From a virus (Duplodnaviria > Heunggongvirae > Uroviricota > Caudoviricetes): a stretch of 14,457 bases of DNA. The DNA is taken from IMG/VR virus record IMGVR_UViG_2537562191_000039, positions 1 to 14,457 of that record. One strand, given 5' to 3'. The stretch's first letter is position 1, and every line of letters starts with the position of its first letter. Positions 1-13,025 of the stretch are shown piece after piece. Below the pieces are notes generated by a model, which saw only the letters and a program-made list of their open reading frames with translations, did no database searches and was not told where the DNA came from. Made by a program: the position numbers and the translations under genes.

Positions 1-170
1 TGGCCACACTAACGTGGGTGGACTGGTATAACAATCGACGATTGCTGGGAAGGCTGGGCCATACTCCTCCGGCAGAAGCAGAAAAAGCTTATTATGCTTC
101 CATCGGAAACGATGATCTGGCAGCCTGAGTTCACAGATAAAACACTCTCCAGGAAACCCGGGGCGGTTCA
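1..170 (+). mobile_element. Right end of an insertion sequence (transposase 3' end plus terminal repeat); outer boundary approximate
   Basis: Transposase stop at 126-128 is followed by about 40 nt before methyltransferase-coding sequence resumes in another frame. The end is placed provisionally at the CA dinucleotide at 169-170. The left end and any target-site duplication lie outside the window, so the boundary is unverified. Confidence 0.45.
3..128 (+). CDS. DDE transposase/integrase (rve-type, IS3-family-like), C-terminal fragment; 5' end is off-window
   Basis: Frame 3 is open from nt 3 to TGA at 126-128 and translates to ATLTWVDWYNNRRLLGRLGHTPPAEAEKAYYASIGNDDLAA*. The W..WYN..R....G..TP.E.E pattern matches the conserved C-terminal end of rve-type transposase catalytic domains. 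Not in the ORF track because the start is outside the window. Confidence 0.6.
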   Translation, partial: ATLTWVDWYNNRRLLGRLGHTPPAEAEKAYYASIGNDDLAA

Positions 171-181
171 AATCCCCTGAC

Positions 182-3100
182 GTGCTCGTCGGGGGAACAC
201 CATGTTTTACCGCGGGGCATATGGTTCTTTGTAAAAATGGCTATAAACCAATAGAAAATGTTTGCCCTGGTGATTACGTAGTCAGTCATCTCGGGCGGTT
301 ACAACAAGTAAAAAGAGTTGGTTCAAAAATAGCTAATACGGGGTTACTTAATGCCGTTGGGCAGCCTTTAGGTATAAGAACAACCAATGACCATCCCTTC
401 CTGGCTGTTCGGTGGAAAGCCCAAAACACCCGGAAAAATGGCACATATTTTAAGAGAGAGTTGTTGTCTGAACCGGAATGGCGAGCAGCATGTGATATGC
501 CGGGATATCAATGGTGCGCTCTAACTAATTTCAATATTGCATTTCCAGATATTTGTTCTCGGTTCTTGTCTGAAGAACAGGCTATGTATCTTGCGGGCGC
601 TTATGTTGGCGATGGATATATTAGGAGATGGAGAGGTAAATCTAAGAAGGCGGTTGTTTTTGGCATAAATTGCCAGAAATTGAGAAAGTTTCATTGCCGC
701 ATACCAGAAAACATATTTTCCGTGGCAAGCGAAATCCGAGGGAGCATCAAAGTAACCTTGAATGATACGTGTTATGCCAATTGGCTTAATGAACATTTTG
801 GCGAGTTAAGCCATGCTAAGCGTATCCCTGCATGGGTGATGTCGCATCCATTGCGTCATGTGTTTTTACAAGGCTATCTTGATACTGATGGGACACCAAG
901 TGGTAAAGCGGGATTTAGAATTAATAGTGTTAGTTCTGCGCTTGCTTGGGGCGTTGCGGGGTTGTCACAGACTTGTGGTTATGTTTCTTCGGTCAGCTTT
1001 ATTGAAGTTGAGCCCAAAAAAGTGATCGAGGATCGCGTGGTAAATCAACGGAATTATTATCAGGTAACAATCTGCCCGCAGAAATTGTCACGTAAATCAA
1101 GATTGGCTCATGGAATGCTTTTACGAACAGTCAAAGAGTTTAAATCGGTAGGCCTAGATACTGTATACAACATAGAAGTCGAAGGTGATCATTCCTATAT
1201 CCTCAATGGTGCGGTGGTCCATAACTGTCAGGCATTCAGTATCGCGGGATTACGTGGTGGGCTTGATGATGAGCGTGGCGCGCTAACTTTAAAGTATGTG
1301 GAGCTTGCAAATGCAATTGACGACAAACGGGCTGAGTCATTTCTCAAACCAGCCGTTATCGTCTGGGAAAATGTCCCAGGAGTCTTGTCATCGGCAGATA
1401 ACGCCTTCGGATGTTTCCTTGCCGGATTGGCTGGAGAAGATGCGCCATTTGAACCAGGTGATCGACCTGAATCAGGAAAAAGTAACACGTTCTGGCGGTG
1501 GGATGGCAAAACCGGTTGCCATGCTCCAAAGTGGCCGCAGTGTGGTTGTATTTATGGACCGCAGCGAAAAGTGGCCTGGAGAATCCTTGATGCCCAATAC
1601 TTCGGAGTGGCACAACGACGCCGACGCGTGTTTGTTGTCGCAAGTGCTCGAACAGACCTCGATCCCGCAACGGTACTTTTTGAGTTCGAAGGCGTGCGCC
1701 GGAATATTGCGCCGAGCCGAAAAAAGAAGGAAATCGCTTCCGCCATTATTGCAAATGGCGCTGCAATCAGTGGCGAAAGCCTAAATCCATGCCTACACGC
1801 TGACATGCCACCCGGTATGAAATCGACGAAAGCCGTAAACGCTTTCAGGATGGCAGCATTTGGGGAATATATTGACGATGAAACCGCATCGACAGTAAAG
1901 GCAAGAGATTTTAAAGATGCCACTGACCTTGCCGTTTTTAGCAGCACAGGAGCAGGTTTTTGGTCAGAAGGGCATGGTACATTGCGGGCACGTGAGCAAG
2001 AAAGCCATGAGCATCTTGTTACATTGGCTTTTCCTGAGCGTATGAGCGGTACACAACATGCTGCAACTAAGAATACTTCACCATCTCTAATGGCTAAAAA
2101 TCCAACAGCTGTTTGCTATGAAGTAAGAAACGCAGAAGTAGCTGTCCGCCGTCTTACCCCTGTCGAATGTGAAAGGCTGCAAGGTTTTCCTGAGGGGCAT
2201 ACGTTGATCCCGACGGAAAAGCGTAAAAAAGTTTCTTCAGATGAACTGGCATACCTTCGCAATCACTATCCAGATTTAAGCGAAGAAGAGGCCGCGATGC
2301 TTGCAGCTGACGGACCGCGTTACAAAGCGATCGGCAACAGCATGGCAGTTCCTGTTATGCAATGGATAGGGTGTCGCATTCTTGCGACCGTAGCGGATAA
2401 ACAGCAAAAAACAATAAATACCATTACCTACACAAGAAAACTCCGGACTCCGGATGAATATGAACGCCCAATATTCAAATGGGTAGGCGGTAAATTCTCA
2501 GAGTTGCCTACAGTGCTTGAGCATCTACCACACGGCAAGCGGTTAATAGAACCATTCGTTGGTGGCGGTTCCGTATTTACGAATGCAGGATTTCGCCACA
2601 ACCTGCTTAATGATATTAACGGTGACCTGATTAACTTCTATCAGACATTGCAGCGAGAGGGACATTCGCTCGTCACGCTGGCATATAGTTTTTTCAAAAA
2701 TTACAACAACGCTGACGCTTACCTCGAAGTGCGTGAGGCATTTAACAGAGGAAAGTATGACCAACTACATCATGCTGCTGCCTTTTTGTACCTTAATCGG
2801 CACTGTTTTAATGGCGTAACGCGGTACAACCAAAATGGCGAGTTCAACGTAGGGTATGGCAAATACAAAGCGCCCTACTTCCCACATGCAGAGATGGAGG
2901 CATTTTTGGCTGATGACGTACTCAAAAACACTTCCTTTGTATCAGGTGACTTTGCTAGCGTCATTGAGGCGGCTGGTGAAGACGATGTGATTTTTTGTGA
3001 TCCGCCGTATGAACCGCTTCCGGATACAGAGGGATTTACCAGCTATTCAGGAAATAGCTTCCGTTTCGACGAACAGAAACGGCTTGTATCACTGTTGGTG

Positions 3101-3274
3101 GATGCCCACCAGCGCGGCGCTAAGGTAGTGATAACAAATAGTGGTGCTCCAAACATCCGTGAACTATATGAAGGAAACGGGTTTAAAGTACATCATATGG
3201 CAGCCAGACGGTCGGTTTCCTGCAAGGCGTCAACACGTGTAGTTGCTAACGATATAATTGCAATAATGAAGTAA
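182..3274 (+). CDS. Fused DNA methyltransferase: C5-cytosine MTase domain (motifs IV-X only, intein-interrupted) plus Dam-like N6-adenine MTase domain; 5'-truncated by the IS
   Basis: ORF-track protein of 1030 aa. C5-MTase motifs appear in canonical order: motif IV split by the intein (SPDVLVGGTP|CQAFSIAGLRGG), motif VI VIVWENVPGV (ENV at nt 1367-1375), motif VIII YFGVAQRRRRVFVVA, motif IX RRLTPVECERLQGFPEGH, motif X AIGNSMAVPV. The last ~290 aa carry Dam-family motifs: KWVGGK, EPFVGGGSV (nt 2555-2572), FLYLNR, EFNVGYGKYK, FCDPPY (nt 2999-3010). No motifs I-III are present. Reading upstream in frame hits TGA at 113-115 inside the IS end, so the GTG at 182 (no Shine-Dalgarno) is probably not the ancestral start. 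Confidence 0.85.
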   Translation: MLVGGTPCFTAGHMVLCKNGYKPIENVCPGDYVVSHLGRLQQVKRVGSKIANTGLLNAVGQPLGIRTTNDHPFLAVRWKAQNTRKNGTYFKRELLSEPEWRAACDMPGYQWCALTNFNIAFPDICSRFLSEEQAMYLAGAYVGDGYIRRWRGKSKKAVVFGINCQKLRKFHCRIPENIFSVASEIRGSIKVTLNDTCYANWLNEHFGELSHAKRIPAWVMSHPLRHVFLQGYLDTDGTPSGKAGFRINSVSSALAWGVAGLSQTCGYVSSVSFIEVEPKKVIEDRVVNQRNYYQVTICPQKLSRKSRLAHGMLLRTVKEFKSVGLDTVYNIEVEGDHSYILNGAVVHNCQAFSIAGLRGGLDDERGALTLKYVELANAIDDKRAESFLKPAVIVWENVPGVLSSADNAFGCFLAGLAGEDAPFEPGDRPESGKSNTFWRWDGKTGCHAPKWPQCGCIYGPQRKVAWRILDAQYFGVAQRRRRVFVVASARTDLDPATVLFEFEGVRRNIAPSRKKKEIASAIIANGAAISGESLNPCLHADMPPGMKSTKAVNAFRMAAFGEYIDDETASTVKARDFKDATDLAVFSSTGAGFWSEGHGTLRAREQESHEHLVTLAFPERMSGTQHAATKNTSPSLMAKNPTAVCYEVRNAEVAVRRLTPVECERLQGFPEGHTLIPTEKRKKVSSDELAYLRNHYPDLSEEEAAMLAADGPRYKAIGNSMAVPVMQWIGCRILATVADKQQKTINTITYTRKLRTPDEYERPIFKWVGGKFSELPTVLEHLPHGKRLIEPFVGGGSVFTNAGFRHNLLNDINGDLINFYQTLQREGHSLVTLAYSFFKNYNNADAYLEVREAFNRGKYDQLHHAAAFLYLNRHCFNGVTRYNQNGEFNVGYGKYKAPYFPHAEMEAFLADDVLKNTSFVSGDFASVIEAAGEDDVIFCDPPYEPLPDTEGFTSYSGNSFRFDEQKRLVSLLVDAHQRGAKVVITNSGAPNIRELYEGNGFKVHHMAARRSVSCKASTRVVANDIIAIMK
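203..1225 (+). other. Intein (Hint splicing domain with LAGLIDADG homing-endonuclease insert), 341 aa, inserted at the catalytic Cys of the C5-MTase PCQ motif
   Basis: Begins with Cys (TGT 203-205) directly after GGTP, with an N-terminal block CFTAGHMVLCKNGYKPIENVCPGDYVV. Block B is TNDHPF. Two LAGLIDADG-type motifs, LAGAYVGDGY (nt 590-616) and FLQGYLDTDG (nt ~866-892), each retain the Asp. Block F is VYNIEVEGDHSY. Ends ILNGAVVHN (AAC 1223-1225) followed by +1 Cys (TGT 1226-1228). Removing it joins GGTP to CQAFSIAG, restoring GG.PCQ.FS.AG. Confidence 0.8.
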
Positions 3275-3304
3275 AAAACGCCGCAGTAGCGGCGTTTACT
3301 TTTT
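3273..3304. terminator. Bidirectional rho-independent terminator between the convergent MTase and glnS genes
   Basis: Hairpin with stem CGCCGC (3279-3284), loop AGTA, stem GCGGCG (3289-3294). An A-run (3273-3278) lies on one side and a T-rich tract TTTACTTTTT (3295-3304) on the other, giving a U-tract on either strand. Confidence 0.7.
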
Positions 3305-3322
3305 CATGTGGCGAAATACCTA

Positions 3323-4984
3323 TTAACCTAACTTCGCCCAGGTATCACGCAGCCCAACGGTGCGGTTAAATACCGGTTTTTCCGCCGTAGAATGGCGGCT
3401 GTCGAGGCAGAAATAACCTTCACGCTCAAACTGGAATGCTTTACCCGCTACCGCTTCTTTCAGCGACGGTTCAGCAAAGCCCTGTTTGATCACCAGCGAT
3501 TCCGGGTTAATCACCGACAGGAAATCATCCGCAGCACCTGGGTTCGGCACGTTGAACAGACGATCGTACAGGCGGATTTCAACCGGCAGCGCATGTGCCG
3601 CGCTCACCCAGTGAATAACGCCTTTCACTTTACGACCATCTGCCGGATCTTTGCTTAAGGTGTCGGCGTCATAAGTACAGAAGATGGTGGTGATATTGCC
3701 TTCGGCATCTTTCTCCACGCGTTCAGCCTTAATGACGTAAGCATTACGCAGACGCACTTCTTTACCCAGCACCAGACGTTTGTACTGCTTGTTAGCTTCT
3801 TCGCGGAAATCGGCGCGGTCGATCCAAATCTCACCGCTAAACGGCACCTGACGGCTACCCATTTCCGGTTTGTTTGGATGGTTCGGCATGGTGACCATTT
3901 CGCCTTCGCCCTGGTAGTTTTCGATAACCAGTTTCACCGGATCGATAACCGCCATTGCGCGCGGGGCATTTTCGTTGAGATCTTCACGGATGCAGGATTC
4001 CAGCGACGCCATCTCAATGGTGTTGTCCTGCTTGGTCACGCCGATGCGTTTGCAGAACTCACGAATAGAAGCCGCAGTGTAACCACGACGACGCAGACCG
4101 GAAATGGTCGGCATACGCGGGTCATCCCAGCCTTCAACGTGCTTGTCGGTCACCAGCAGGTTCAGCTTACGCTTGGACATCACGGTGTATTCCAGATTCA
4201 GGCGCGAGAATTCGTACTGGCGCGGATGAACAGGAATGGTGATGTTGTCCAGTACCCAGTCATACAGACGACGGTTGTCCTGGAACTCAAGCGTACACAG
4301 AGAGTGCGTAATACCTTCCAGCGCATCGCTGATGCAGTGGGTGAAGTCGTACATCGGGTAGATGCACCACTTGTTGCCAGTCTGGTGGTGTTCAGCAAAC
4401 TTAATACGGTACAGCACCGGGTCGCGCATCACGATAAACGGCGAAGCCATGTCGATTTTCGCACGCAGGCAGGCTTTACCTTCTTCAAAACCACCGGCAC
4501 GCATTTTTTCGAACAGCGCCAGGTTCTCTTCAACGCTGCGGTCGCGGTACGGGCTGTTTTTACCCGGCTGCGTCAGGGTGCCGCGGTATTCGCGGATCTG
4601 TTCCGGCGTCAGTTCGTCAACATACGCCAGGCCTTTGTTGATCAGTTCAACAGCATAGGCATGGAGTTTGTCAAAATAATCGGAGGAGTAACGGATGTTG
4701 CCAGACCAGTGAAAACCTAACCATTCAACGTCGTTTTTAATCGACTCAACGTACTCGATATCTTCTTTTACTGGGTTAGTGTCGTCGAAACGCAGGTTGC
4801 ACTGGCCTTTATAGTCCTGGGCGATCCCGAAGTTCAGGCAGATAGATTTCGCATGACCAATATGCAGATAGCCATTCGGTTCCGGCGGGAAACGGGTATG
4901 TACTGTGGTGTGCTTACCACTGGCCAGATCTTCATCGATGATCTGACGAATAAAGTTAGTCGGGCGGGCTTCTGCCTCACTCAT
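3323..4984 (-). CDS. glnS: Glutamine--tRNA ligase (glutaminyl-tRNA synthetase)
   Basis: 553-aa product begins [48 protein letters not shown], with the class I HIGH motif and a VMSKR (KMSKS-type) motif. Full length and near-identical to E. coli GlnRS as I recall it. The flanks are not the chromosomal nagE/chiP neighbours. Confidence 0.97.
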
Positions 4985-5173
4985 TGTGGATTCCTCAAAG
5001 CGTAAACAACGTATAACAGCGTATGATCTTATAAGCCGAATAGGCTGACAACCACTAGTTGATTAGAAATTGCTTTCTATCGTTATTTCAATAATGAGCT
5101 TTTTCATGAAGCCCACTTTTGCGCATAAGTAAATTAATGATAAATGGCACACAATTGGAACCAAAAAGGATGT

Positions 5174-5211
5174 AAAGGTGCACCAAATTAGTGGTGTATT
5201 GGTACACCTTT
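5174..5211. promoter_or_regulatory. Imperfect palindrome downstream of the ParA/RHH operon; candidate protein-binding site or weak terminator
   Basis: Arms AAAGGTGCACC (5174-5184) and GGTACACCTTT (5201-5211) pair at 10 of 11 positions across a 16-bp spacer. No clean U-tract follows on the minus strand. Confidence 0.35.
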
Positions 5212-5252
5212 GGTTCAAGACTTTTTAAGTTCTAAAACCAACCTGAAAGACT

Positions 5253-5540
5253 TTATTTTGCTTCCTCAGACTCCGCTAACATGAGGATAGCATGGCGGAT
5301 CATATTCAATTTGCTGCGATTATGCTTTTTACTTAACGCATCAAGTACTTGGTACTCGTATTCATTGAAACCAACACGAATAGATTTAAAATCACGTGGA
5401 GCGTCCTTATCGAGCACTTTGTTGTCTTCTGGTTGCTCACCCGGCACCAAATCAGCCTTACTGGCAAAATCCTCAATTCGGCGTTCAAGATCGGGGTCTT
5501 TTACTTCGGGGGCTTTTACCGATTTACGAGGCTTAATCAC
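5253..5540 (-). CDS. ParG-like ribbon-helix-helix centromere-binding partner of ParA
   Basis: 95 aa. C-terminal RHH pattern: strand KSIRVGFNEYEY, helix QVLDALSKK, helix KLNMIRHAILMLAE, after a charged flexible N-terminus. GTG start overlaps the parA stop by 8 nt, with AAGGAG just upstream (translational coupling). Confidence 0.55.
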   Translation of the reverse strand: MIKPRKSVKAPEVKDPDLERRIEDFASKADLVPGEQPEDNKVLDKDAPRDFKSIRVGFNEYEYQVLDALSKKHNRSKLNMIRHAILMLAESEEAK

Positions 5541-6174
5541 TTAATAACTCCTTAACCAACATCTGGATTTCACCTTTAGCTTTCCCGTTGTCCATCTCAA
5601 CAACGCCCTTCCCTTCAGCCATGCAATCGCGGTAAACCTTACGATCACGAATGATGGTTTTCAGCAACTTCAGTTGCGGATATTCAGCTAGGTACTCTTT
5701 GGCCTCATTGGTTTCATTCACAACCGGATTGGATGGGGCCATTGTTAAGACTGCGAACGCCTTAATGCTAGGATTAGGCATCAGGTCCAAAGCCTCTTCA
5801 AACACTTCAACAAAGTGTGCCAGCGTGTCTAAATCTGGTTGAGATGGTCTGAATGGGACCAACACAATATCTGCAGCGGTTATGCCTGTACGCATCTCTT
5901 TGCTATCGCGCCCGGCTGTATCAACAACTACAAATTCATAACGCTTATCCAGATCGAGAAGTGTTTCTCGAATATTACCAAACTTCTGGACACAATGAAT
6001 TACAGGAGAAACCTCTGCCGTGTTACGGTCAGCTGCCCAGCGGGCAGCTGTTCCTTGCTTGTCTGCATCTAGTAACACTACATCCTTATTTGCGCGGGCA
6101 AGCTCCGCACAGATGTTTACGCTTGTGGTTGATTTTCCACAGCCACCTTTTTGGCTGACTACCAATATAATCAT
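5533..6174 (-). CDS. parA: ParA-family partition ATPase (small, type Ib-like)
   Basis: Deviant Walker A near the N-terminus, MIILVVSQKGGCGKSTTSVN, then LLDADKQG and VVVDTAGR motifs typical of ParA/MinD ATPases. Start placed at the internal ATG 6174, which has GAGGAA 5 nt upstream, rather than the ORF-track start at 6204. Confidence 0.85.
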   Translation of the reverse strand: MIILVVSQKGGCGKSTTSVNICAELARANKDVVLLDADKQGTAARWAADRNTAEVSPVIHCVQKFGNIRETLLDLDKRYEFVVVDTAGRDSKEMRTGITAADIVLVPFRPSQPDLDTLAHFVEVFEEALDLMPNPSIKAFAVLTMAPSNPVVNETNEAKEYLAEYPQLKLLKTIIRDRKVYRDCMAEGKGVVEMDNGKAKGEIQMLVKELLSD

Positions 6175-6418
6175 ATCCGTTCCTCGGTGTGATTTTGGTA
6201 TCAAAACGGTTCCAGATAAGAGCCTTTTTGATGCGGGACAGGCTCTATAATGGAGTCATGAATGTTTGGCAAAGTATAACATCAATCAGACCAAATACAC
6301 CTTATATTGCATCCTATTTAACACGAAATCAGCCCTAAATTGGAACCAGATACAAAATTGCACCATAACAGCACCTAACCGGTGCCAGATTAACACTAAT
6401 TAGACACCATTAAGGCAT

Positions 6419-6443
6419 AAAAAAGGCTGCAATTTGCAGCCTT
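6419..6443 (-). terminator. Rho-independent terminator of the parM-parR operon
   Basis: Perfect inverted repeat AAGGCTGCA / TGCAGCCTT (6423-6431 and 6435-6443) about 20 nt past the parR stop. On the minus strand it is followed by a run of six T (complement of the A-run at 6419-6424). Confidence 0.65.
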
Positions 6444-6461
6444 AAACCAGCACATCTTCTG

Positions 6462-6806
6462 TCAATCAGGTAGAGAGTCAGCCAGATTGCGCGCCGACGC
6501 GCTTTTGGCAACAACTTGCTCCTTCACTGGCTCAATGGAGGCAGGGCGCTCCTCAACCGCAGCTGGTAGTTCCAGGAAGGATGCCAGCATTTTTCGGATC
6601 AGCTCCGGGTTATTGTCTTCGGTCAGCAGGGAAGCCAGTAATCCTGGAAGCCTGCTATCGACTTCTCCCAGCGCAAGCCCTGCCAACAATGCGGTTCTTG
6701 CCATATCGCTATGTTTTTTTATCTTCTCGCTCGCCGCCTTTTCATTGGCATAAGCCTCTGGGCGAAGATAAATCATCACTTTCTTACGTTCCTGAGACAT
6801 GGACAT
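6462..6806 (-). CDS. parR: ParR-like centromere-binding adaptor of the type II (ParMRC) partition system
   Basis: 114 aa. N-terminal KKVMIYLRPE and central ARTALLAGLALGEVDSRLPGLLASLLTE resemble plasmid R1 ParR/StbB as I recall it. Sits directly downstream of parM with GAGG 4 nt before its ATG. Confidence 0.75.
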   Translation of the reverse strand: MSMSQERKKVMIYLRPEAYANEKAASEKIKKHSDMARTALLAGLALGEVDSRLPGLLASLLTEDNNPELIRKMLASFLELPAAVEERPASIEPVKEQVVAKSASARNLADSLPD

Positions 6807-6813
6807 TACCTCG

Positions 6814-7770
6814 TTAACCGATTGCTTTCAGGCCATGAACAAGAGCAAGTTGCGGGTCATCCGCCACGAAGAAACGGTCATCACGAATATTAACTTGCTC
6901 GCGAATTGCATCTGCCACCAGCGGTGCGCCACCACCGATCACCATGACATGCGTATATCCTTTAAAGTCGCCAATCACATCAAGAACTCGGGTACGCAGA
7001 CGGTCAATGCTTGCGGCAATGGCCTTTTTCACATCACCAATCGCTGATGGGTCATTGATATTGTCGTTCAGATAATCTTCATCGTGGCGGTTAATAATGA
7101 GCTGATCAACATTGTAATTTGACGTTTCGGTATTGGCCCTTGCAAGTGCTTGCCTTACTTCCCTGGTGACCAGTGATACACCAAGATTCGAATCGCCAAA
7201 AACACGGGAAACTGCCGTCATTTGCCCAGCGACCATTGAAACATCAAGGGTAGTTCCACCCAAATCGACGATAAGAACAGAATGGACAGGGTTCAGATTG
7301 TCGCACAGGCCAATTCCTGCCGGAATAGACTCCGGTCGTACCGTAACTTTCTTAATCGTGAACACATTGCCTTTATTCAGCGTGACGGGGCGCATAAGGC
7401 TGGCTTTCTTGCGCTCGATGTTATCGAGATTGTATTGCGCGTCGTCGTCGTAAAACTCCGCCAGAGGCAGCGTGACCACAATTTCTACTTCCTGCGGCTC
7501 AATACCGCTTGTCAGCAGGGCATGGTGAACAGCCAGGACGTTAAGCGGGCTGTATTGCCATTCCACGTTATTCGTCGGCAGAACATCTGGCGAGATCAAA
7601 TCATACGAATACTTCTCGTCGTCAATGACATAGTTAAACGGCTTGCCAGCACCAAATGTTGCTGACCATCCGCGCTTAAAGCTGTTAGGACTGATGTGAG
7701 TGCGAGTTTCCCCGTCGTGCTCCCACAGCATTTTGATATTGGTTGAACCATCATCGATAAAAATGCGCAT
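6814..7770 (-). CDS. parM: ParM/StbA actin-like plasmid segregation ATPase
   Basis: MRIFIDDGSTNIK (phosphate 1), LIVDLGGTTLDVS (phosphate 2) and HVMVIGGGA (adenosine) motifs; colinear with R1 ParM as recalled over the whole length. Start placed at the internal ATG 7770, which has GGAG 7 nt upstream; the ORF-track start at 7794 is a GTG eight codons further up. Confidence 0.9.
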   Translation of the reverse strand: MRIFIDDGSTNIKMLWEHDGETRTHISPNSFKRGWSATFGAGKPFNYVIDDEKYSYDLISPDVLPTNNVEWQYSPLNVLAVHHALLTSGIEPQEVEIVVTLPLAEFYDDDAQYNLDNIERKKASLMRPVTLNKGNVFTIKKVTVRPESIPAGIGLCDNLNPVHSVLIVDLGGTTLDVSMVAGQMTAVSRVFGDSNLGVSLVTREVRQALARANTETSNYNVDQLIINRHDEDYLNDNINDPSAIGDVKKAIAASIDRLRTRVLDVIGDFKGYTHVMVIGGGAPLVADAIREQVNIRDDRFFVADDPQLALVHGLKAIG

Positions 7771-7796
7771 CTTCTTGCTCCACTTCTGAGACACAT

Positions 7797-7951
7797 TTGA
7801 GAATCAAAATGTAATTTTAAAAGAGAAGCACCCAAAAATCCACACCAAACGAGACAAAAAAGAGCGCTTGTTGAGTTTATTTTGAGAATATCTTAATCAC
7901 CCACTGAATGATGGCCTGATAGTGAGATTTATTTGAGAATGAATTGAGAAT
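7797..7951. repeat. Iteron cluster (parC-like centromere/operator) in the parM upstream region
   Basis: Exact TTGAGAAT copies at 7797-7804, 7882-7889, 7933-7940 and 7944-7951, plus degenerate copies TTGAGTTT (7871-7878) and GTGAGATT (7922-7929). All lie between the divergent parM and PAAR genes. Confidence 0.55.
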
Positions 7952-8036
7952 ACAAAAATATTCCGAAATTTAACTCTCCGTTTGAATGACGAAATAACAA
8001 AGTGATGACAATAGGAGGATAACCAGGAGGTGAAGA

Positions 8037-8321
8037 ATGAGCGCAATAGCCACCAGCGACACCCTTTGTTCTGGTCACGGAGGATTTCCGCCGCGACTGG
8101 TAGCTGAAACCGTTCCCTGGTTCACCGTTAACGGTAAGCCAGTTGTTGTAGATGGTGCCATGTTTCCCAGTCACACTGACGGTAACAGTGCACACCCAGG
8201 GGCAGCTGTATCGACGCGAGTATGGTTTTCGATAGGTGGAAAGGGAGTTGTCTGTGTAGGCGATCCGCTTTCTTGTGGTTCTGTTATCGCCAACGGCGAG
8301 GATATTTTTCAGGTTGCATAA
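8037..8321 (+). CDS. PAAR-domain protein (spike-tip type, as in phage gp5.4 or T6SS PAAR)
   Basis: 94 aa with three PAAR-like segments and conserved metal ligands: DTLCSGHGGFPP, VNGKPVVVDGAM...HTDGNSAHPG, IGGKGVVCVGDPLSCGSVIANG. Strong RBS AGGAGG at 8025-8030, 6 nt before ATG 8037. Confidence 0.7.
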   Translation: MSAIATSDTLCSGHGGFPPRLVAETVPWFTVNGKPVVVDGAMFPSHTDGNSAHPGAAVSTRVWFSIGGKGVVCVGDPLSCGSVIANGEDIFQVA

Positions 8322-9124
8322 TGCTTGATTCAATAGGTGAAGTTAAAGCCTTCAAAATTCTGTCAGATGCCGGTATCTCTACACCAGAATCTATAACCAT
8401 AAGCCGGGCAGCTTCTGTAAAAGCCTCATCACTCGCCAGCGCCATACAGGGAATAGTTCACGCCGATAAAACCTATCCTGATTCTGTTTCGGCCTGGACT
8501 ACTCAATTGCTTGGCTTTTCTGAACAGCTCAATGAGGCCAGCAAAGCGTCTTCATTACTGGCTGATTCTCTTTCCCCATACACCAAGCCATCAGAGCTGT
8601 TACAGATGAAGATTGGCTGGGAATGCTACGCAAAAGGTAACGAGCTGACCCCCATACCTGCTTTCGCCCTTGTTGAGGGAATGGGGAATGTTTCCATTCC
8701 GCAATCTCTAACGGACGCATTGACGGCGCTAAAACTTGATGCTCTGAAAACCGCCATGAACGCCATTAACGCAAAAATTGAAGCTGCCGGAAGTGCTGGT
8801 GGTGATAGCAATGGTGGGCAGGGTGGTACTGGGGGCGCTCAGGCTCCAGTCATTACTCAGGATGAAATTGATGCTTTACGGGAAGCAGTGACAGCCGCCG
8901 AAGTTTTACTCTCCGAAATTAACTCAGCAAGTGAGAGTGTCGTAGCCCTTGCAGGTCGCATTAAAACGTCAACCACTCAGGCAACCAAAGGTTTAGAGAA
9001 CGCTGTCGCCATCACGTTAACTGGTTCTCTACTGGATGATGCAGTAATGAGTCCGGCAATCAGTTTAATCATACCACAAGGCGTTATCGACGCGCTCCAA
9101 ACGAACACCAAAAAGGAACCATAG
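8321..9124 (+). CDS. Hypothetical protein, Ala/Ser/Leu-rich with a central Gly-rich linker; function unknown
   Basis: ATG at 8321 overlaps the PAAR stop (TAATG). 267 aa from MLDSIGEVKAF. Internal low-complexity linker AGSAGGDSNGGQGGTGGAQAP. No transmembrane segment or catalytic motif recognised. The ORF-track N-terminal extension from 8222 overlaps the PAAR gene and is rejected. Confidence 0.55.
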   Translation: MLDSIGEVKAFKILSDAGISTPESITISRAASVKASSLASAIQGIVHADKTYPDSVSAWTTQLLGFSEQLNEASKASSLLADSLSPYTKPSELLQMKIGWECYAKGNELTPIPAFALVEGMGNVSIPQSLTDALTALKLDALKTAMNAINAKIEAAGSAGGDSNGGQGGTGGAQAPVITQDEIDALREAVTAAEVLLSEINSASESVVALAGRIKTSTTQATKGLENAVAITLTGSLLDDAVMSPAISLIIPQGVIDALQTNTKKEP

Positions 9125-9163
9125 CAACACCACTTAGGAACACAAAAGGATATAAATTGGTAC

Positions 9164-9655
9164 ATGTTTAACACCAAAAAAATGAACCTGAAGAGGATGG
9201 TTTTGAAAAAGATAATTTTGATTGTAATTGCGCTTTTAGCCATTTCTGGAATTTACCGAACAACGACGGCAGTTATCGAACACATCAGGTATGTCCGATC
9301 GCTTGAAGACTCAAAATCACAACTGGAAAGCACGAACAACACGCTTTCTACCGCATTACAGTTAAGTGAGAACGCTCGCTCAGCCATGCTGACCGAAAAC
9401 GAAAGAATTAAAGCACTGGAAAAGGAGTACCAGCGCAAAACAGCAGAACTGAATGCCAACCTAATCAAACAACGAGAGGAAAGCCAGAATGAAATCACTC
9501 GCCTTGAAAATGCGTTACGCCGTGCTGGGATTAACGATGTGCGTGTGCCTGATGACGTTATCAGGATGCAGCGGGAACGGGCAAAAGCCATCAACCAGCG
9601 TGCCAGTGAAAATTACCGTAGAAGCCACCAGCAAGCCGCAGGCAAATCTGATTGA
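9164..9655 (+). CDS. Putative i-spanin (Rz-like inner-membrane spanin subunit)
   Basis: 163 aa. N-terminal basic region then a hydrophobic segment IILIVIALLAISGIY (type II membrane anchor), followed by a charged, heptad-rich periplasmic region. The o-spanin gene is embedded in its 3' part in another frame. Confidence 0.6.
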   Translation: MFNTKKMNLKRMVLKKIILIVIALLAISGIYRTTTAVIEHIRYVRSLEDSKSQLESTNNTLSTALQLSENARSAMLTENERIKALEKEYQRKTAELNANLIKQREESQNEITRLENALRRAGINDVRVPDDVIRMQRERAKAINQRASENYRRSHQQAAGKSD

Positions 9656-9821
9656 TTACTCCCCTTGTTTAGTGCCAGAGGACACGCCAGTGCTGTTAAA
9701 CAAGTATCCGACATACGCTGAACAGTTATTCAGCACGATCGACGAATGCAACCAACGAAACGCACTGAATAACCAAAGAAACAGGGAGATTTGGGAAGGG
9801 AAGGGGGATCAAGGCTCCTGA
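9489..9821 (+). CDS. Putative o-spanin (Rz1-like outer-membrane lipoprotein)
   Basis: Signal peptide with lipobox (MKSLALKMRYAVLGLTMCVCLMTLSG|C) and a Pro/Cys-containing mature region. Starts inside the i-spanin gene in a different frame and extends 166 nt past its stop. GAGGA lies 8 nt upstream of ATG 9489; ATG 9510 is an alternative start. Confidence 0.6.
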   Translation: MKSLALKMRYAVLGLTMCVCLMTLSGCSGNGQKPSTSVPVKITVEATSKPQANLIDYSPCLVPEDTPVLLNKYPTYAEQLFSTIDECNQRNALNNQRNREIWEGKGDQGS

Positions 9822-10267
9822 AGCCAGATGTCCTGGCTGTCAGCTTCTTCGAAACCGTGACAGACGTTAAAGTCACTCAAGCGATACTGACGCTGACGGC
9901 CTCTATTTCGCTCATGCCAATGCATGTATCCACCAGCAAATGCCAGCGGACAATCACTATAGTCTATGTAACCAATACCATTCCCCAAACGTGCTTCGCG
10001 CGCACCGGCTTTCCAGGACAGTAGAAAAGAGTCACGATCCGCCAGCATAACAACAAAATCGTCCGGATCTCCGATACAGTGAAGAATACCTGCCTTACAT
10101 AACTGCTTGAGCGCTTTTGACTGGCTCAGGATGTCTTCTCCGTAATACTGAAAACAATCATCAACAACAGCGGGATAGCCTGCCGGGGGATTCAGGCTGG
10201 TTGGTATAGCTGACGCGATCGCCAGCATTAAGCGATATTGTGTTTTTGATGGGTTAACGTGACTCAT
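9809..10267 (-). CDS. Hypothetical protein (152 aa), second gene of a two-gene minus-strand operon
   Basis: ORF-track 152 aa beginning MSHVNPSKTQYRLMLAIASAIP. AAGGGA sits 5 nt upstream of the ATG. No recognisable domain. Its 3' end overlaps the convergent o-spanin gene by 13 nt. Confidence 0.55.
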   Translation of the reverse strand: MSHVNPSKTQYRLMLAIASAIPTSLNPPAGYPAVVDDCFQYYGEDILSQSKALKQLCKAGILHCIGDPDDFVVMLADRDSFLLSWKAGAREARLGNGIGYIDYSDCPLAFAGGYMHWHERNRGRQRQYRLSDFNVCHGFEEADSQDIWLQEP

Positions 10268-10283
10268 TTTGTCCCTTGTTTAC

Positions 10284-10676
10284 TCATTGTCGCCATGCAT
10301 TTTTTAACTCAGGAATATCTGCCATTTCAATTAACTTGCGAAGTCCAGCACTGACTTTCCCATTGCCAACCATAGCAAGCCAATCTCTTACAGCTTTCGG
10401 CATGTAGAGCGTTGCAGTTACCGGCTCTTCAACCCTGGCAGGACATCCGCATACAGGCCATTTAATTGATTCCATAACTTCGGATGCCGGGGTGAGGGCG
10501 GGGACATTGAGTATATCTCTACCAGAAAACTGGATAACGATCCGTTCAGCGAGCGAGAGTATCTCACTTTCGGCAAGAATTGATGCCAACTGCGCCTCAA
10601 CAAGAAAGCGACTTGTTGTGTTCAGAGAGTGGCTCTTAGCGCCATTTTTATACGAAACAAAGATTCGATACGCCAT
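10284..10676 (-). CDS. Hypothetical protein (130 aa) with C-terminal ribbon-helix-helix-like DNA-binding region
   Basis: C-terminus TATLYMPKAVRDWLAMVGNGKVSAGLRKLIEMA fits a strand-helix-loop-helix RHH pattern (Arc/MetJ-like). The N-terminal ~80 aa are unrecognised. First gene of the operon, 16 nt upstream of the 152-aa gene. Confidence 0.55.
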   Translation of the reverse strand: MAYRIFVSYKNGAKSHSLNTTSRFLVEAQLASILAESEILSLAERIVIQFSGRDILNVPALTPASEVMESIKWPVCGCPARVEEPVTATLYMPKAVRDWLAMVGNGKVSAGLRKLIEMADIPELKNAWRQ

Positions 10677-10834
10677 AACTCTAATGATTTGTGTTAGAAA
10701 ACTAAAATTAAATCACATAACAACATGCGTGTTAATAGATTTTATTTTACTAAACCTATTGACTAAATCACAAAGTAGGTATTGTTAGCCCGTCAAAAGA
10801 ACCTTCACGCCGCGCCCGAATTTAGGGCTTAACC

Positions 10835-12532
10835 GTGAATAAAAACATTCAGCCAGCTCGTGATCGCGAGCGCGAGATTATGAATCGGGCGGCAAGCGTC
10901 ATGGCTATGACCGTCGATCCGACCACCGATGCAGCAGGCAACATGATTGCTGACCAGGCAGTAATGATGGAAAACCTGGATAAAGCAATCCAGAAAGTGC
11001 CTATGTTTGAAGGCGTAAATCCAGAGGTCGCTCGTCAGATCACTGGTGGGTGGGCTATGTCTCTGCATGAGTATAAACGTCAACATGGTCATTACCCGGC
11101 AAGTGACATCCTGGCGAACGCACACATGGCTCTTGAACGCCTGATGACTGAATGTGCCAGTGATACCCATGAAGGCACGGGTAAGGCAATGTTTGAGTCT
11201 GTCGCGCAATCAATGCGTAGCTCTGACGGCGTAATGAAAGTTGCTCAATATGCTGCTCTAATTCTGCCTGCCTCTCTGGGCGCTGCTACCAGTGATGCCT
11301 GTACTTTTGTTCCTTGTGATCGTGACGAGTCAAATATTTATGAACTGGTCAACGTAGCAGGCACAAAATTCGGCACCTTCAAACAAGGTGACGAACTGAA
11401 TATGCAGTCAGCTGGTGTTTATTCTCAAATGAAGCGCCTGTATACCCTTTCCACTAAAGGGGATGGCAGCACCAAAACCTTCCAGTTCGACATCCAAAAT
11501 TTTGAGGGACAATCCTGCCCGCTTCGCGCTGGTTATAACAAACTGCTGATCAACCGCAAACCGTCCAAAGTTGACGACGGCGATGGCAACCTTTATTTCA
11601 ATGCTAAAGACAGCAAAGGTAATGCTTTCTCAGCGACTGCCAAAGTTGCCTATGACACTGGTGTCATTGACATTACATTTACCCAGGCTCCGCCAGAAGG
11701 TACTGAAATTGCTGTTCAGGTCGAAATTAACATCGAGCGCAATCCAAGCCTGATTCCTGTGATCAACCAGGCTATGCGTAAGTACGAAGTTCGTCCGTCC
11801 CAGTACGTAATTGCTTCCGAACACACGGTAATGTCCGCATCCGATTTAAGCCGTGAGCACGGCCTTGAATTAGCGGCACTTCAGTTCTCCGCGATGCGTA
11901 ACTGGATCTCCCATGAAACTGACATCATGCGTCTGCGCACCCTGGTATTCCATACCGTTTATGGCCGTGAATTTGATGTGGCTCTGCCGGAAGCTCAAAA
12001 CTATGAGTCCTGGGTCGGCCTCCTGCGTCACGTAGTAAACGCTCTGTCTCAGGAAATGGCAAATCGTACCCTGACAACGGGTATTCGTGGCGGCTTTGCT
12101 GGTGGTGACGCCGCGAACTTCCTGCGCTCTCTGCCTCCACAGCACTTCCAGATCGCACCAGGTTACGTTCAGTCGCCGTATGTACAGTACATCGGCACCC
12201 TGTTTGGCACGATTCGTATTTACGAAGTGCCGCAACCTGTCTGTGAGCAATTCCAGGCACAGGGATATGACTTCGGGCTGGATGACATCTTCTTCTATGG
12301 GCGTGGCGAAGGCATCGGTAAAGCCGGTCTGATTGCTGGTGATGCAGTCCCTGCAATCCCTTACGTGCACGAAACCAATCCGTCTCTCGTTAACCGTACC
12401 ACTCTCTGGGGCAGTGCCATCAACGAAGTACATCCTCGCAACGGTGAAAACTACTTCACTCGCCTGCGTCTGACTCGTGCCAAAGAAGGCGCTATCGACA
12501 TGCTGACAGGCAAGGTTAACGAAAAAAAGTGA
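10835..12532 (+). CDS. Putative major capsid protein (large phage head protein); exact family not established
   Basis: 565-aa ORF with GTG start (an in-frame ATG at 10880 is an alternative). It is followed by an Ig-like decoration-type gene and ends in an A_AAA_AAG slippery heptamer. The C-terminal region loosely recalls T4 gp23-type capsid proteins, but this is from memory only. The gene is certainly real; the product call is tentative. Confidence 0.5.
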   Translation: MNKNIQPARDREREIMNRAASVMAMTVDPTTDAAGNMIADQAVMMENLDKAIQKVPMFEGVNPEVARQITGGWAMSLHEYKRQHGHYPASDILANAHMALERLMTECASDTHEGTGKAMFESVAQSMRSSDGVMKVAQYAALILPASLGAATSDACTFVPCDRDESNIYELVNVAGTKFGTFKQGDELNMQSAGVYSQMKRLYTLSTKGDGSTKTFQFDIQNFEGQSCPLRAGYNKLLINRKPSKVDDGDGNLYFNAKDSKGNAFSATAKVAYDTGVIDITFTQAPPEGTEIAVQVEINIERNPSLIPVINQAMRKYEVRPSQYVIASEHTVMSASDLSREHGLELAALQFSAMRNWISHETDIMRLRTLVFHTVYGREFDVALPEAQNYESWVGLLRHVVNALSQEMANRTLTTGIRGGFAGGDAANFLRSLPPQHFQIAPGYVQSPYVQYIGTLFGTIRIYEVPQPVCEQFQAQGYDFGLDDIFFYGRGEGIGKAGLIAGDAVPAIPYVHETNPSLVNRTTLWGSAINEVHPRNGENYFTRLRLTRAKEGAIDMLTGKVNEKK

Positions 12533-12645
12533 TGGTGGCGAACGTGTCGGTATCACCAACGTCACTTGACGTAGATGAAGGTGAAACTATCGCCGCGAAC
12601 ACTTCAAAGGCACAGAAAAAAACAAAGCAGAAGTAAGGCAAAAAC

Positions 12646-12666
12646 ACGCCCCTGAATAAGGGGCGT
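12646..12666 (+). other. RNA hairpin between the capsid gene and the Ig-like gene (not a canonical terminator)
   Basis: Stem ACGCCCC (12646-12652) / GGGGCGT (12660-12666) with a 7-nt loop. No U-tract follows; it is followed directly by AGGAG (12669-12673) and ATG 12680. Confidence 0.35.
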
Positions 12667-12679
12667 TCAGGAGAAAAGA

Positions 12680-12958
12680 ATGGCAAACATTCAAGTAACT
12701 ATCTCGCCATCTGACGCAACAGACAAATCTTTCACTGTTGAGTCCGATCACCCTGAAATTGTCCAGGTTGATGGCACTACATGTACCGCTCTTAAGGCCG
12801 GGCAGGCAGTGCTGACAATCAAAACAAATGACGGCAATAAAACCGCACAGTGCACAGTCACTGTTAGGGAGGCACCTAAAAGCGTAAGCGCCGTCAGTGT
12901 TGAACCAACTACGAAAGAAGTAACCGTAGGCGACAACTTCACGGTAAGCGAATCCTGA
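12680..12958 (+). CDS. Ig-like (Big_2-type) domain protein, probable head decoration or accessory protein
   Basis: 92 aa. VTISPSDATDKSFTVESDHPEIVQVDGTTCTALKAGQAVLTIKTNDGNKTAQCTVTV fits the bacterial Ig-like group 2 pattern. RBS AGGAG is 6 nt upstream. The C-terminal VSAVSVEPTTKEVTVGDNFTV looks like the start of a second, truncated Ig-like domain. Confidence 0.65.
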   Translation: MANIQVTISPSDATDKSFTVESDHPEIVQVDGTTCTALKAGQAVLTIKTNDGNKTAQCTVTVREAPKSVSAVSVEPTTKEVTVGDNFTVSES

Positions 12959-12962
12959 TCAG

Positions 12963-12989
12963 AGGCTGCCCATTAACCGTGGGTAGCCT
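12963..12989 (+). other. RNA hairpin downstream of the Ig-like gene; possible weak terminator or attenuator
   Basis: 10-bp stem AGGCTGCCCA (12963-12972) / TGGGTAGCCT (12980-12989) with one G-U pair and a 7-nt loop, followed by a pyrimidine-rich rather than clean U tract. Confidence 0.3.
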
Positions 12990-13025
12990 TGCCTCGTTCT
13001 CTCGCTTTAGAGGATAAGAACCAGC

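What the first reader, a model, noticed from the sequence alone, without database searches (positions are those of the whole stretch)
182..3274. Orphan bifunctional methyltransferase (C5-cytosine plus Dam-like N6-adenine) with no restriction partner in the window
One ORF carries C5-MTase motifs IV-X followed by a complete Dam-type domain (FVGGGS...DPPY). No restriction endonuclease gene is visible nearby. Fused orphan MTases of this kind are typical of phage and phage-plasmid anti-restriction or packaging functions. From memory, phage P1 encodes a bifunctional Dmt and needs adenine methylation at its pac site; I cannot confirm homology here. Because the C5 half looks truncated, only the adenine-methylating half may be active.
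Basis: partly seen in the sequence, partly recalled or inferred. Interest (0 to 1): 0.55.

Follow-up and report, generated by a model that had tools for sequence, protein, structure and literature searches.

The report
IS-truncated P1-type Dmt methyltransferase carrying intein
The ORF is a broken copy of the known phage P1 Dmt (cytosine plus adenine) DNA methyltransferase: an IS629 element has cut off its start, and an unannotated self-splicing intein with a homing endonuclease sits exactly at the catalytic cysteine of the cytosine-methylating half.

Summary
ORF 182-3274 encodes C5-cytosine MTase motifs IV-X followed by a complete Dam (D12) domain, and no restriction gene lies nearby. It is a homologue of phage P1 dmt sitting on a D6-like phage-plasmid backbone.

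- Bases 1-170 are the right end of IS629. It removes the promoter link, the start codon and the first 69 codons (motifs I-III), so the "GTG start" at 182 is only a mechanical ORF start.
- Bases 203-1225 (341 codons) are a LAGLIDADG intein inserted in frame in motif IV (GGTP|C...HN|CQAFS). It has Cys1, TxxH and HN/Cys+1. The model is confident (pLDDT 91.6) and best matches PI-SceI.

The same intein occupies 129 of 492 dmt-bearing plasmids in PLSDB and occurs in 152 of 5,426 complete E. coli genomes. About 150 diverged relatives sit at the same C5-MTase site.

Bases 1-1442 are identical to a P1-like plasmid that has the same IS629::dmt junction. Bases 1226-14457 are identical to the intein-free D6-like plasmid pE2863-2. 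The contig is therefore either a real recombinant or an assembly chimera.

In this copy the C5 half is dead. The Dam half is intact in sequence, but whether it is expressed is unproven. This is a known enzyme carrying a new member of a known intein kind.

The parts
1..170 (+). Right (3') end of IS629 (IS1203-type, IS3 family). The orfB C-terminus runs 3-128 and the right inverted repeat 146-170.
   Evidence: 170/170 identical to the annotated IS629 of VT1-Sakai, ending exactly at its annotated right inverted repeat. The contig starts inside the IS.
171..202 (+). Remnant of the dmt N-extein, encoding (S)PDVLVGGTP, which is the first half of C5-MTase motif IV. The mechanical ORF start GTG lies at 182.
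   Evidence: Colinear with dmt of P1-like plasmids and pE2863-2. The two variable sites (181, 202) carry the P1-like allele. There is no SD before GTG182.
203..1225 (+). Class-1 intein of 341 codons with a nested LAGLIDADG homing endonuclease. Cys1 is at 203-205, block B TNDH at 383-400, LAGLIDADG motifs at 590-616 and 866-892, block F at 1163-1198, and the terminal HN at 1220-1225.
   Evidence: Pfam Hint_2, LAGLIDADG_3 and Intein_splicing. TIGR01443 intein_Cterm scores above its cut-off. It is absent as one exact in-frame block from P1 and pE2863-2 dmt. AF2 pLDDT is 91.6. Foldseek top hits are PI-SceI, TliVMA, PI-PfuI and PI-PkoII inteins.
1226..2356 (+). C-extein, C5-cytosine methyltransferase part. 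The catalytic Cys of motif IV (also the intein +1 Cys) is at 1226-1228, ENV at 1367-1381, QRRRRVF at 1613-1633 and motif X GNSMAVPV at 2333-2356.
   Evidence: PF00145/TIGR00675 partial matches. Motif positions. 100% identical to pE2863-2 and about 99% identical to P1-like dmt.
2229..2259 (+). Sequence identical to the 'predicted late promoter LPdam2' annotated inside P7 dam. An in-frame ATG at 2297, preceded by GAAGAGG, follows.
   Evidence: P7 annotation, sequence, exact single match in the window, start-codon scan. It is a prediction only.
2338..2444 (+). Linker holding the junction between the P1-type C5 module and the D6-type Dam module.
   Evidence: Identity to P1-like dmt drops from about 99% to 67% after 2338. 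97% identity to phage D6 begins at 2444.
2477..3274 (+). Dam-type (D12 class) N6-adenine methyltransferase domain. KWVGGK is at 2477-2494, FVGGGS at 2555-2572, DPPY at 2999-3010 and the stop codon at 3272-3274.
   Evidence: PF02086 E 6.6e-56 over the full-length profile. TIGR00571 E 1.6e-73. Matches the stand-alone Dam (orf63) of D6.
3276..3297 (.). Bidirectional terminator-like hairpin between the convergent dmt and glnS genes.
   Evidence: Nine-pair GC-rich stem followed by T runs on both strands.

Best explanation
Window 182-3274 is the 3' remnant of a phage-P1-type dmt gene. The gene product is a C5-cytosine methyltransferase fused to a Dam-type GATC adenine methyltransferase, and it lies on a D6-like phage-plasmid backbone. 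Two mobile elements have hit the gene.

(1) A 341-codon intein sits in frame immediately before the catalytic cysteine of motif IV (GGTP|C...HN|CQAFS).
- In intact alleles the precursor should excise the intein by protein splicing. The catalytic Cys acts as the +1 nucleophile, which recreates GGTPCQAFS and an active C5 domain.
- The nested LAGLIDADG endonuclease should cut intein-free dmt alleles at this site and spread the intein by repair (homing).

(2) IS629 is inserted 32 bp upstream of the intein.
- It removes the start codon, the first 69 codons (motifs I-III, the AdoMet-binding part) and the link to the operon promoter.
- In this copy the C5 activity is therefore lost, and normal splicing of a full precursor cannot occur.
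- The Dam half is intact in sequence but is probably silent, or made only from an internal start.

How the left and right parts came together: the IS629-intein-bearing left part (1-1442) comes from a P1-like plasmid allele and the rest from a pE2863-2-type D6-like plasmid. They are joined within a 217-bp stretch where the two are identical.

Shown: the anatomy, the homologies, the intein hallmarks and fold, the junctions and the distribution. Inferred: splicing, endonuclease activity, loss of function, and how the two parts came together.
For: Dmt identity:
- (dmt of P1, RCS47, Ro157c2YLVW).
- (85% aa identity between the intact pE2863-2 allele and P1 Dmt).
- (domains).

IS629:
- (170/170 identity, ending at the annotated inverted repeat).
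- in p7_54_11A-2 the same insertion has the dmt 5' fragment of 67 codons on the other side and a 3-bp AAT target duplication.

Intein:
- (family models).
- exact 1023-bp in-frame block absent from P1 and pE2863-2.
- the in-silico spliced product equals residues 74-762 of pE2863-2 Dmt.
- Cys1, the block B His, both LAGLIDADG Asp-Gly motifs and the terminal Asn are conserved in relatives of 28-53% identity.
- confident model whose best matches are intein-homing endonucleases.
- of 151 full-length relatives, all start with Cys, 134 end in HN, 131 are followed by CQ, and 121 of 133 have ENV downstream.

Patchy occupancy typical of a homing element:
- 129 of 492 plasmids.
- 152 of 5,426 genomes.
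- 98.5-100% DNA identity across E. coli, E. albertii, E. fergusonii and Salmonella.

No promoter-like site on the + strand in 1-3229, and no SD at GTG182 or ATG221.

Mosaic origin.
Against: - Splicing and endonuclease activity are not demonstrated for this intein or, as far as I could find, for any close relative.
- The other side of IS629 is not in the contig. A simple insertion is therefore inferred from the identical junction in p7_54_11A-2, not seen here.
- A Dam-only product from an internal promoter and start cannot be excluded, so 'dead gene' applies with confidence only to the C5 half.
- The physical linkage of the intein-bearing left part to the D6-like backbone rests on one draft contig and is found in no complete plasmid or genome.
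Confidence: 0.85

Rival explanations
1. Real recombinant. In a cell holding both plasmid types, the IS629::dmt-intein allele of a P1-like plasmid was copied into the dmt gene of a D6-like plasmid. The mechanism would be gene conversion, possibly started by the intein endonuclease cutting the intein-free allele. The right crossover lies in 1226-1442. The left crossover lies in the ~180 bp of dmt upstream of the IS, so the IS was co-converted together with the intein.
For: - Bases 1-1442 are identical to p7_54_11A-2, including the IS junction.
- Bases 1226-14457 are identical to the intein-free pE2863-2.
- The two informative sites left of the intein are donor-type and all 312 to the right are recipient-type.
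- Co-residence of intein-bearing P1-like and D6-like plasmids exists in strain 88.0502.
- A contig that runs unbroken through both would-be branch points is what a single allele in the strain would give.
Against: - Left-side homology is short and only about 94% identical, and rdgC is 65-80% identical.
- No D6-like plasmid with the intein exists among 72,556 plasmids or 5,426 complete E. coli genomes.
- The protein is seen on one contig only.
- The donor allele's endonuclease would have to be made from an IS-disrupted gene.
Confidence: 0.5
2. Assembly chimera. The strain carries a P1-like plasmid with IS629::dmt-intein and a separate D6-like plasmid with an intein-free dmt. The draft assembler switched templates inside the shared C5 module.
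For: - The two sources are identical for 217 bp (1226-1442) and differ at only 5 sites up to 2337.
- The left part is identical to a real P1-like plasmid allele.
- The combination is unique to this draft contig.
- The contig is bounded by a repeat (IS629), so the assembly was repeat-limited.
Against: - Graph-based assemblers normally break at such branch points rather than pass through two of them.
- All five SNPs at 1443-1657 are consistently of one type.
- No read-level data were available to test this.
Confidence: 0.35
3. The Dam half is still produced and active. It would be made from read-out transcription of IS629, or from the internal late promoter plus ATG 2297, and would methylate GATC.
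For: - The Dam domain is complete.
- D6 encodes the same domain as a stand-alone 301-aa protein.
- The P7-annotated predicted late promoter is conserved exactly at 2229-2259, followed by an ATG with an SD-like GAAGAGG.
Against: - The promoter is only a prediction in another phage.
- No sigma-70-like site was found in 1-3229.
- Translation from ATG 2297 is untested.
- The E. coli host has its own Dam, so there is no selection to keep it (own knowledge; P1 dmt is needed only in dam- hosts, PMC12707154).
Confidence: 0.3
4. Independent events. The intein homed into the D6-like plasmid, and IS629 later inserted on its own at the same nucleotide and orientation as in the P1-like plasmid p7_54_11A-2 (an insertion hot spot).
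For: IS629 is very abundant in these strains, with thousands of matches. The donor-type SNPs next to the intein fit a short co-conversion tract.
Against: Identical position and orientation in two plasmids is improbable. Only one other record among 5,426 genomes has this junction.
Confidence: 0.08
5. The 1-kb block is a non-splicing domain insertion or a degenerate intein, so intein-bearing dmt alleles have a permanently inactive C5 half.
For: No experimental splicing data were found.
Against: All splicing residues are present and conserved across relatives down to 28% identity. Both endonuclease motifs are intact. The fold is confidently that of an intein. Copies from four species are 98.5-100% identical, which argues for recent spread rather than decay.
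Confidence: 0.05

Closest known systems
Phage P1 Dmt (YP_006537.1; dmt, P1_gp069) and P7 Dam
   Same: - Same domain order: C5-cytosine MTase followed by Dam D12 MTase.
- 85% aa identity between the intact pE2863-2 allele and P1 Dmt.
- The C5 half is about 99% identical in DNA to P1-like dmt.
- In the intact relatives it follows rdgC/hrdC in an operon.
- Orphan, with no adjacent restriction gene.
   Different: - Reference P1 and P7 lack the intein.
- The window copy lacks codons 1-69 because of IS629.
- Its Dam half is the D6 type, only about 67% identical in DNA to P1's.
- It lies on a D6-like backbone rather than a P1 backbone.
dmt of Escherichia phage RCS47, vB_EcoM-Ro157c2YLVW and about 129 P1-like plasmids in PLSDB
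   Same: They carry the same intein (98-100% identical) at the same codon. It is annotated only as 'dmt' or 'Dam family methyltransferase'.
   Different: Those genes are intact (1095 aa) and sit on P1-like backbones with a P1-type Dam half. p7_54_11A-2 is the exception, sharing the IS629 insertion.
Phage D6 orf63 Dam (YP_009914740.1)
   Same: The Dam half and everything downstream (glnS, partition genes, capsid) are 97-99% identical.
   Different: In D6 the Dam is a separate 301-aa protein preceded by an unrelated 226-aa 'methyltransferase' (orf64, no Pfam hit). There is no C5 module and no intein.
LAGLIDADG inteins such as PI-SceI (VMA1), TliVMA, PI-PfuI and PI-PkoII
   Same: Same two-domain architecture (HINT splicing domain plus LAGLIDADG endonuclease). 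Foldseek E-values are 3e-17 to 1e-9. Class-1 hallmarks are present: Cys1, TxxH, HN, Cys+1.
   Different: - Only 10-17% sequence identity.
- A different host protein.
- Smaller (341 aa against 360-540 aa).
- No biochemical data.
Inteins in phage DNA methylases (mycobacteriophage DNMT-1/2, Kelley 2016 PMC5050341; Gosselin 2023 PMC9957025; C-5 methylase listed in bioRxiv 10.1101/2025.01.02.630785)
   Same: LAGLIDADG inteins that invade phage orphan methylases and move between divergent hosts. Mycobacteriophage copies are about 27% identical to this one.
   Different: - The described cases are in actinophages, mostly in N6/N4 methylases.
- I found no description of the motif IV (PC|Q) site, of enterobacterial phage-plasmids, or of P1 dmt.
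- The nearest relative in a named phage is the C5 MTase of Mannheimia phage vB_MhS_587AP2 (47.7%, same site).

Membership tests
P1 Dmt-type bifunctional DNA methyltransferase | N-terminal C5-cytosine MTase domain with all ten motifs (I-X) | tested here: not met
   Motifs IV-X are present. Motifs I-III (codons 1-69) are missing because of IS629. The intact allele in pE2863-2 has them.
P1 Dmt-type bifunctional DNA methyltransferase | C-terminal Dam (D12 class) domain fused in the same polypeptide | tested here: met
   PF02086 E 6.6e-56 and TIGR00571 E 1.6e-73 in the same reading frame.
P1 Dmt-type bifunctional DNA methyltransferase | Sequence homology to P1 Dmt over both halves | tested here: met
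   85% aa identity over 755 aa for the intact allele, which is 100% identical to the window C-extein.
P1 Dmt-type bifunctional DNA methyltransferase | GATC N6-adenine methylation (and C5 methylation) activity | not testable with these tools
   Needs a methylome or DpnI/MboI assay. Documented for P1 only (PMC12707154).
Class 1 intein with nested LAGLIDADG homing endonuclease | In-frame insertion in a conserved host-protein motif, with colinear intein-free alleles | tested here: met
   An exact 1023-bp block lies between GGTP and CQAFS. It is absent from P1 and pE2863-2.
Class 1 intein with nested LAGLIDADG homing endonuclease | Splicing residues: Cys/Ser1, block B TxxH, C-terminal HN, and +1 Cys/Ser/Thr | tested here: met
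   C1, T-N-D-H (residues 61-64), H340-N341 and Cys+1 are present. They are conserved in relatives. TIGR01443 scores above its cut-off.
Class 1 intein with nested LAGLIDADG homing endonuclease | HINT fold plus two-motif LAGLIDADG endonuclease fold | tested here: met
   AF2 pLDDT 91.6 and pTM 0.88. Foldseek top hits are PI-SceI, TliVMA, PI-PfuI and PI-PkoII, followed by I-SceI and I-DmoI for the endonuclease part.
Class 1 intein with nested LAGLIDADG homing endonuclease | Protein splicing and site-specific DNA cleavage (homing) | not testable with these tools
   Indirect support only. Occupancy is patchy (129 of 492 plasmids) and copies are near-identical across species.
IS629 (IS3 family) insertion | Terminal inverted repeat and transposase matching IS629 | tested here: met
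   170/170 identity to annotated IS629, including the right inverted repeat.
IS629 (IS3 family) insertion | Target-site duplication and continuation of the target gene on the other side | tested here: inconclusive
   The left side is not in the contig. The identical junction in p7_54_11A-2 has a 3-bp AAT duplication and the dmt 5' fragment.
Type II restriction-modification system | Cognate restriction endonuclease gene adjacent to the methyltransferase | tested here: not met
   Neighbours in the window and in intact relatives are rdgC, tail genes, glnS and partition genes.

The most novel reading that the evidence does not exclude
The dmt intein is an active homing element currently spreading in enterobacterial phage-plasmids. 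This contig would capture its transfer, together with a hitch-hiking IS629, from a P1-like into a D6-like plasmid. Because the intein sits on the catalytic cysteine, splicing would act as a post-translational switch: the unspliced precursor can methylate adenine but cannot methylate cytosine until excision.
Probability: 0.15. Interest if true: 0.6.

Novelty: new member of a known kind. Interest (0 to 1): 0.38.

Why it matters
The methyltransferase itself is the well-known P1 Dmt, so the original finding is ordinary.

Three things are worth noting:
- About a quarter of dmt genes on P1-like plasmids, and about 3% of complete E. coli genomes, carry an unannotated LAGLIDADG intein at the catalytic cysteine of the C5 domain. 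Databases label these 1095-aa proteins simply as 'Dam family methyltransferase'. E. coli is generally treated as intein-free (own knowledge).
- This intein belongs to a large, diverged family that targets the same motif IV site in C5 methyltransferases of many bacteria and phages. That gives a tractable E. coli system for studying intein homing between co-resident plasmids, and splicing-dependent activation of one half of a bifunctional enzyme.
- The case is also a caution for annotation. The ORF here is a remnant created by an IS, and a draft contig can join two plasmids through a shared gene module.

Tried and rejected
- My first reading, 'intein 100% identical versus exteins 86%, hence classic homing signature', was too simple. 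One search showed that the C5 extein is about 99% identical to P1-like dmt and that the divergence lies in the Dam half.
- My second reading was a clean homing snapshot into the D6-like plasmid, with a co-conversion tract of at least 22 bp on the left and under 218 bp on the right. I downgraded it when the junction search found the identical IS629::dmt-intein junction on a P1-like plasmid. That makes recombination or an assembly chimera the simpler explanations.
- I tried to see beyond the IS. The window is the whole contig and the protein is on that contig only.
- I looked for a D6-like plasmid in strain 7-54 11A. Its other plasmids are conjugative or IncFII types.
- I looked for an intact 'intein plus D6-type Dam' protein among cluster members. 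All listed members are P1-type.
- Literature searches for an intein in P1 dmt, in phage-plasmids or at C5 motif IV found nothing specific. The P1 genome paper is not held, and the assembly accession appears in no paper.
- There are no tRNA genes in the window.
- PDB sequence search alone gave only weak intein matches. Fold search was needed.


Full report
**Observation**

The ORF 182-3274 (+, 1030 aa) is real.
- Pfam finds a full-length D12 N6-adenine methyltransferase domain at residues 767-1011 (E 6.6e-56). It also finds a partial C5-cytosine methylase match that covers only the second half of the profile.
- NCBIfam agrees, with TIGR00571 dam at E 1.6e-73 and TIGR00675 dcm.
- The neighbours are a GlnRS paralogue, ParA-like and ParM/StbA partition genes, a PAAR protein, hypothetical proteins and a capsid gene. 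None is a restriction enzyme.

**What the gene is**

DNA searches identify it as dmt of the phage P1 family.
- It matches 'dmt' in P1, P7, RCS47 and vB_EcoM-Ro157c2YLVW (annotations).
- The closest intact allele, in plasmid pE2863-2 (NZ_AP018804.1), is 100% identical to the window from 1226 to 14457.
- That allele encodes a 762-aa protein that is 85% identical to P1 Dmt, with the same C5-then-Dam order.
- The rest of the window follows the gene order of phage-plasmid D6: glnS, partition genes, upfC/upfB and the major capsid gene.
- The gene itself is mosaic. The C5 module is about 99% identical to P1-like dmt up to 2337. The Dam module is D6-type, 97% identical to D6 from 2444 and only about 67% identical to P1.
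- In D6 the Dam is a separate 301-aa protein.
- For P1, Dam methylation of pac sites is required for packaging, and dmt is essential only in dam- hosts (PMC12707154).

**First missed feature: IS629**

- Bases 1-170 are 170/170 identical to the right end of IS629 and stop exactly at its annotated inverted repeat.
- dmt sequence resumes at 171, at codon 70 of the pE2863-2 allele.
- The contig begins inside the IS, so the left side cannot be read.
- The missing 69 codons hold motifs I-III (YGSVCSGIEAAS...EIEPFP...NLGDM).
- The GTG at 182 is simply the first start codon after an in-frame stop and has no Shine-Dalgarno sequence.
- No sigma-70-like promoter was found on the + strand between 1 and 3229.
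- The C5 half of this copy must therefore be inactive.

**Second missed feature: an intein**

The translation reads GGTP|CFTAGHMVL...NGAVVHN|CQAFSIAG.
- Bases 203-1225 (1023 bp, 341 codons) are absent as one exact in-frame block from P1 and pE2863-2 dmt. Removing them restores the canonical motif IV, GGTPCQAFS.
- The in-silico spliced product equals residues 74-762 of pE2863-2 Dmt.
- The block matches Pfam Hint_2, LAGLIDADG_3 and Intein_splicing. It matches the NCBIfam intein C-terminal model above its cut-off.
- It has Cys1, a block B TNDH, two LAGLIDADG motifs (LAGAYVGDG, LQGYLDTDG), block F, a terminal His-Asn and a +1 Cys. These positions are conserved in relatives of 28-53% identity.
- An AlphaFold model built on that alignment is confident (pLDDT 91.6, pTM 0.88).
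- Its best PDB matches are PI-SceI, the TliVMA intein, PI-PfuI and PI-PkoII. Free-standing LAGLIDADG enzymes then match the central domain.
- The +1 Cys is the catalytic cysteine of the PCQ motif. This is established knowledge of C5 methyltransferases, for example Cys81 of M.HhaI. The precursor should therefore lack C5 activity until it splices. That step is inferred.

**Distribution of the intein**

- The intein DNA occurs in 129 plasmids in PLSDB at 98.5-100% identity, across E. coli, E. albertii, E. fergusonii and Salmonella.
- By comparison, 492 plasmids carry the dmt C5 module.
- It occurs in 152 of 5,426 complete E. coli genomes, with 148 of 153 copies on plasmids.
- Records annotate the 1095-aa product only as 'dmt' or 'Dam family methyltransferase'.
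- Beyond this clade, a search of 1.84 billion representative proteins gave 186 hits at E<=1e-30.
- Among 151 full-length matches, all start with Cys, 134 end in HN and 131 are followed by CQ. Nearly all are preceded by G-[GS]-x-P, and 121 of 133 have ENV downstream. A large, old family of inteins therefore targets exactly this site of C5 methyltransferases.
- Named phage examples include Mannheimia phage vB_MhS_587AP2 (47.7%), Propionibacterium phage B22, E. coli jumbo phages and, at about 27%, the mycobacteriophage methylase inteins.

**Literature**

- Inteins in actinophage methylases are described (PMC5050341; PMC9957025).
- C-5 methylases are listed as intein hosts in a 2025 preprint.
- I found no description of this site, of P1 dmt or of enterobacterial phage-plasmids as intein hosts.

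**Origin of the arrangement**

I first read the data as a fresh homing event into the D6-like plasmid.
- The window equals intein-free pE2863-2 everywhere to the right of the intein.
- The intein and the two variable sites just left of it (181, 202) are of the P1-like type.

A junction search then found the identical IS629-dmt-intein junction on p7_54_11A-2, a P1-like plasmid of an O111:H8 strain.
- There the insertion is simple, with the 67-codon dmt 5' fragment on the other side and a 3-bp AAT duplication.
- The window is identical to that plasmid from 1 to 1442 and then follows pE2863-2. The two sources are indistinguishable between 1226 and 1442.
- Two independent IS insertions at the same base are unlikely.

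So the left 1.4 kb derives from such a P1-like allele. It was joined to the D6-like backbone in one of two ways.
- By recombination in vivo. This could have been started by the intein endonuclease. The left crossover would lie in the ~180 bp of about 94% identical dmt sequence upstream of the IS.
- By the assembler. No complete plasmid or genome has the combination. The protein is known from this contig only.

I cannot separate these two with the tools. I put a real recombinant at about 0.5 and a chimera at about 0.35.

**Is the Dam half alive?**

- It is complete and of a type that works as a stand-alone gene in D6.
- The sequence that P7's annotators marked as a predicted late promoter inside dam is conserved exactly at 2229-2259.
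- It is followed by an in-frame ATG at 2297 with an SD-like GAAGAGG.
- This gives a possible route to a Dam-only product, but every step is a prediction.
- The host's own Dam makes the gene dispensable (own knowledge, plus PMC12707154).

**Verdict**

The enzyme is already known. The intein is a new member of a known kind, phage methylase inteins. Its frequency in E. coli phage-plasmids and its position on the catalytic cysteine give it moderate interest.

Noticed in passing
window 3323-4984 (-): A complete glutaminyl-tRNA synthetase paralogue (553 aa, all three GlnRS Pfam domains) sits on the phage-plasmid, convergent with dmt. The same gene is annotated in phage D6 (orf62).
   Followed up: partly
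window 5533-6204 (-), 6462-6806 (-), 6814-7794 (-): Two partition modules lie side by side: a short ParA-like ATPase, and a ParM/StbA actin-type system with a Plasmid_stab_B protein.
   Followed up: no
L002 (P1 reference) dmt, just upstream of the intein insertion point; compare window 190-202: Reference P1 differs from the intein-target consensus at 3 of the 12 nt before the insertion point (GTCTGGGGTACGCC against GTCGGGGGAACACC, giving VWGTPCQ instead of VGGTPCQ). This could make the P1 reference allele resistant to the homing endonuclease.
   Followed up: no
NZ_CP077568.1 and NZ_CP077569.1 (E. coli O111:H11 strain 88.0502): One strain carries both an intein-bearing P1-like plasmid and a D6-like plasmid. 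Donor and recipient types for intein transfer therefore do co-reside in nature.
   Followed up: partly
L009 (NZ_CP077576.1) 14529-18883: The P1-like plasmid p7_54_11A-2 has the identical IS629 insertion in an intein-bearing dmt, with a 3-bp AAT duplication. PGAP calls the downstream part a 930-aa 'Dam family methyltransferase' starting at the ATG inside the intein. That allele also has an internal deletion in the C5 region relative to the window.
   Followed up: partly
NC_028743.1 (Mannheimia phage vB_MhS_587AP2) 27587-28606: A 47.7% identical intein lies at the same motif IV site of a C5 methyltransferase. The gene is annotated as two separate 'DNA methyltransferase' CDSs, and the corresponding Mannheimia protein P0010 ends shortly after the intein.
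   Followed up: no
L004 (phage D6) 7253-7933: D6 orf64, annotated 'DNA methyltransferase' (226 aa), has no Pfam match. In pE2863-2-type plasmids it is replaced by the P1-type C5 module, with the breakpoint at window ~2338-2444.
   Followed up: no
window 149-180 (- strand): A terminator-like hairpin (12 pairs) straddles the IS629 inverted repeat and the first bases of dmt. It is probably a chance product of the junction.
   Followed up: no
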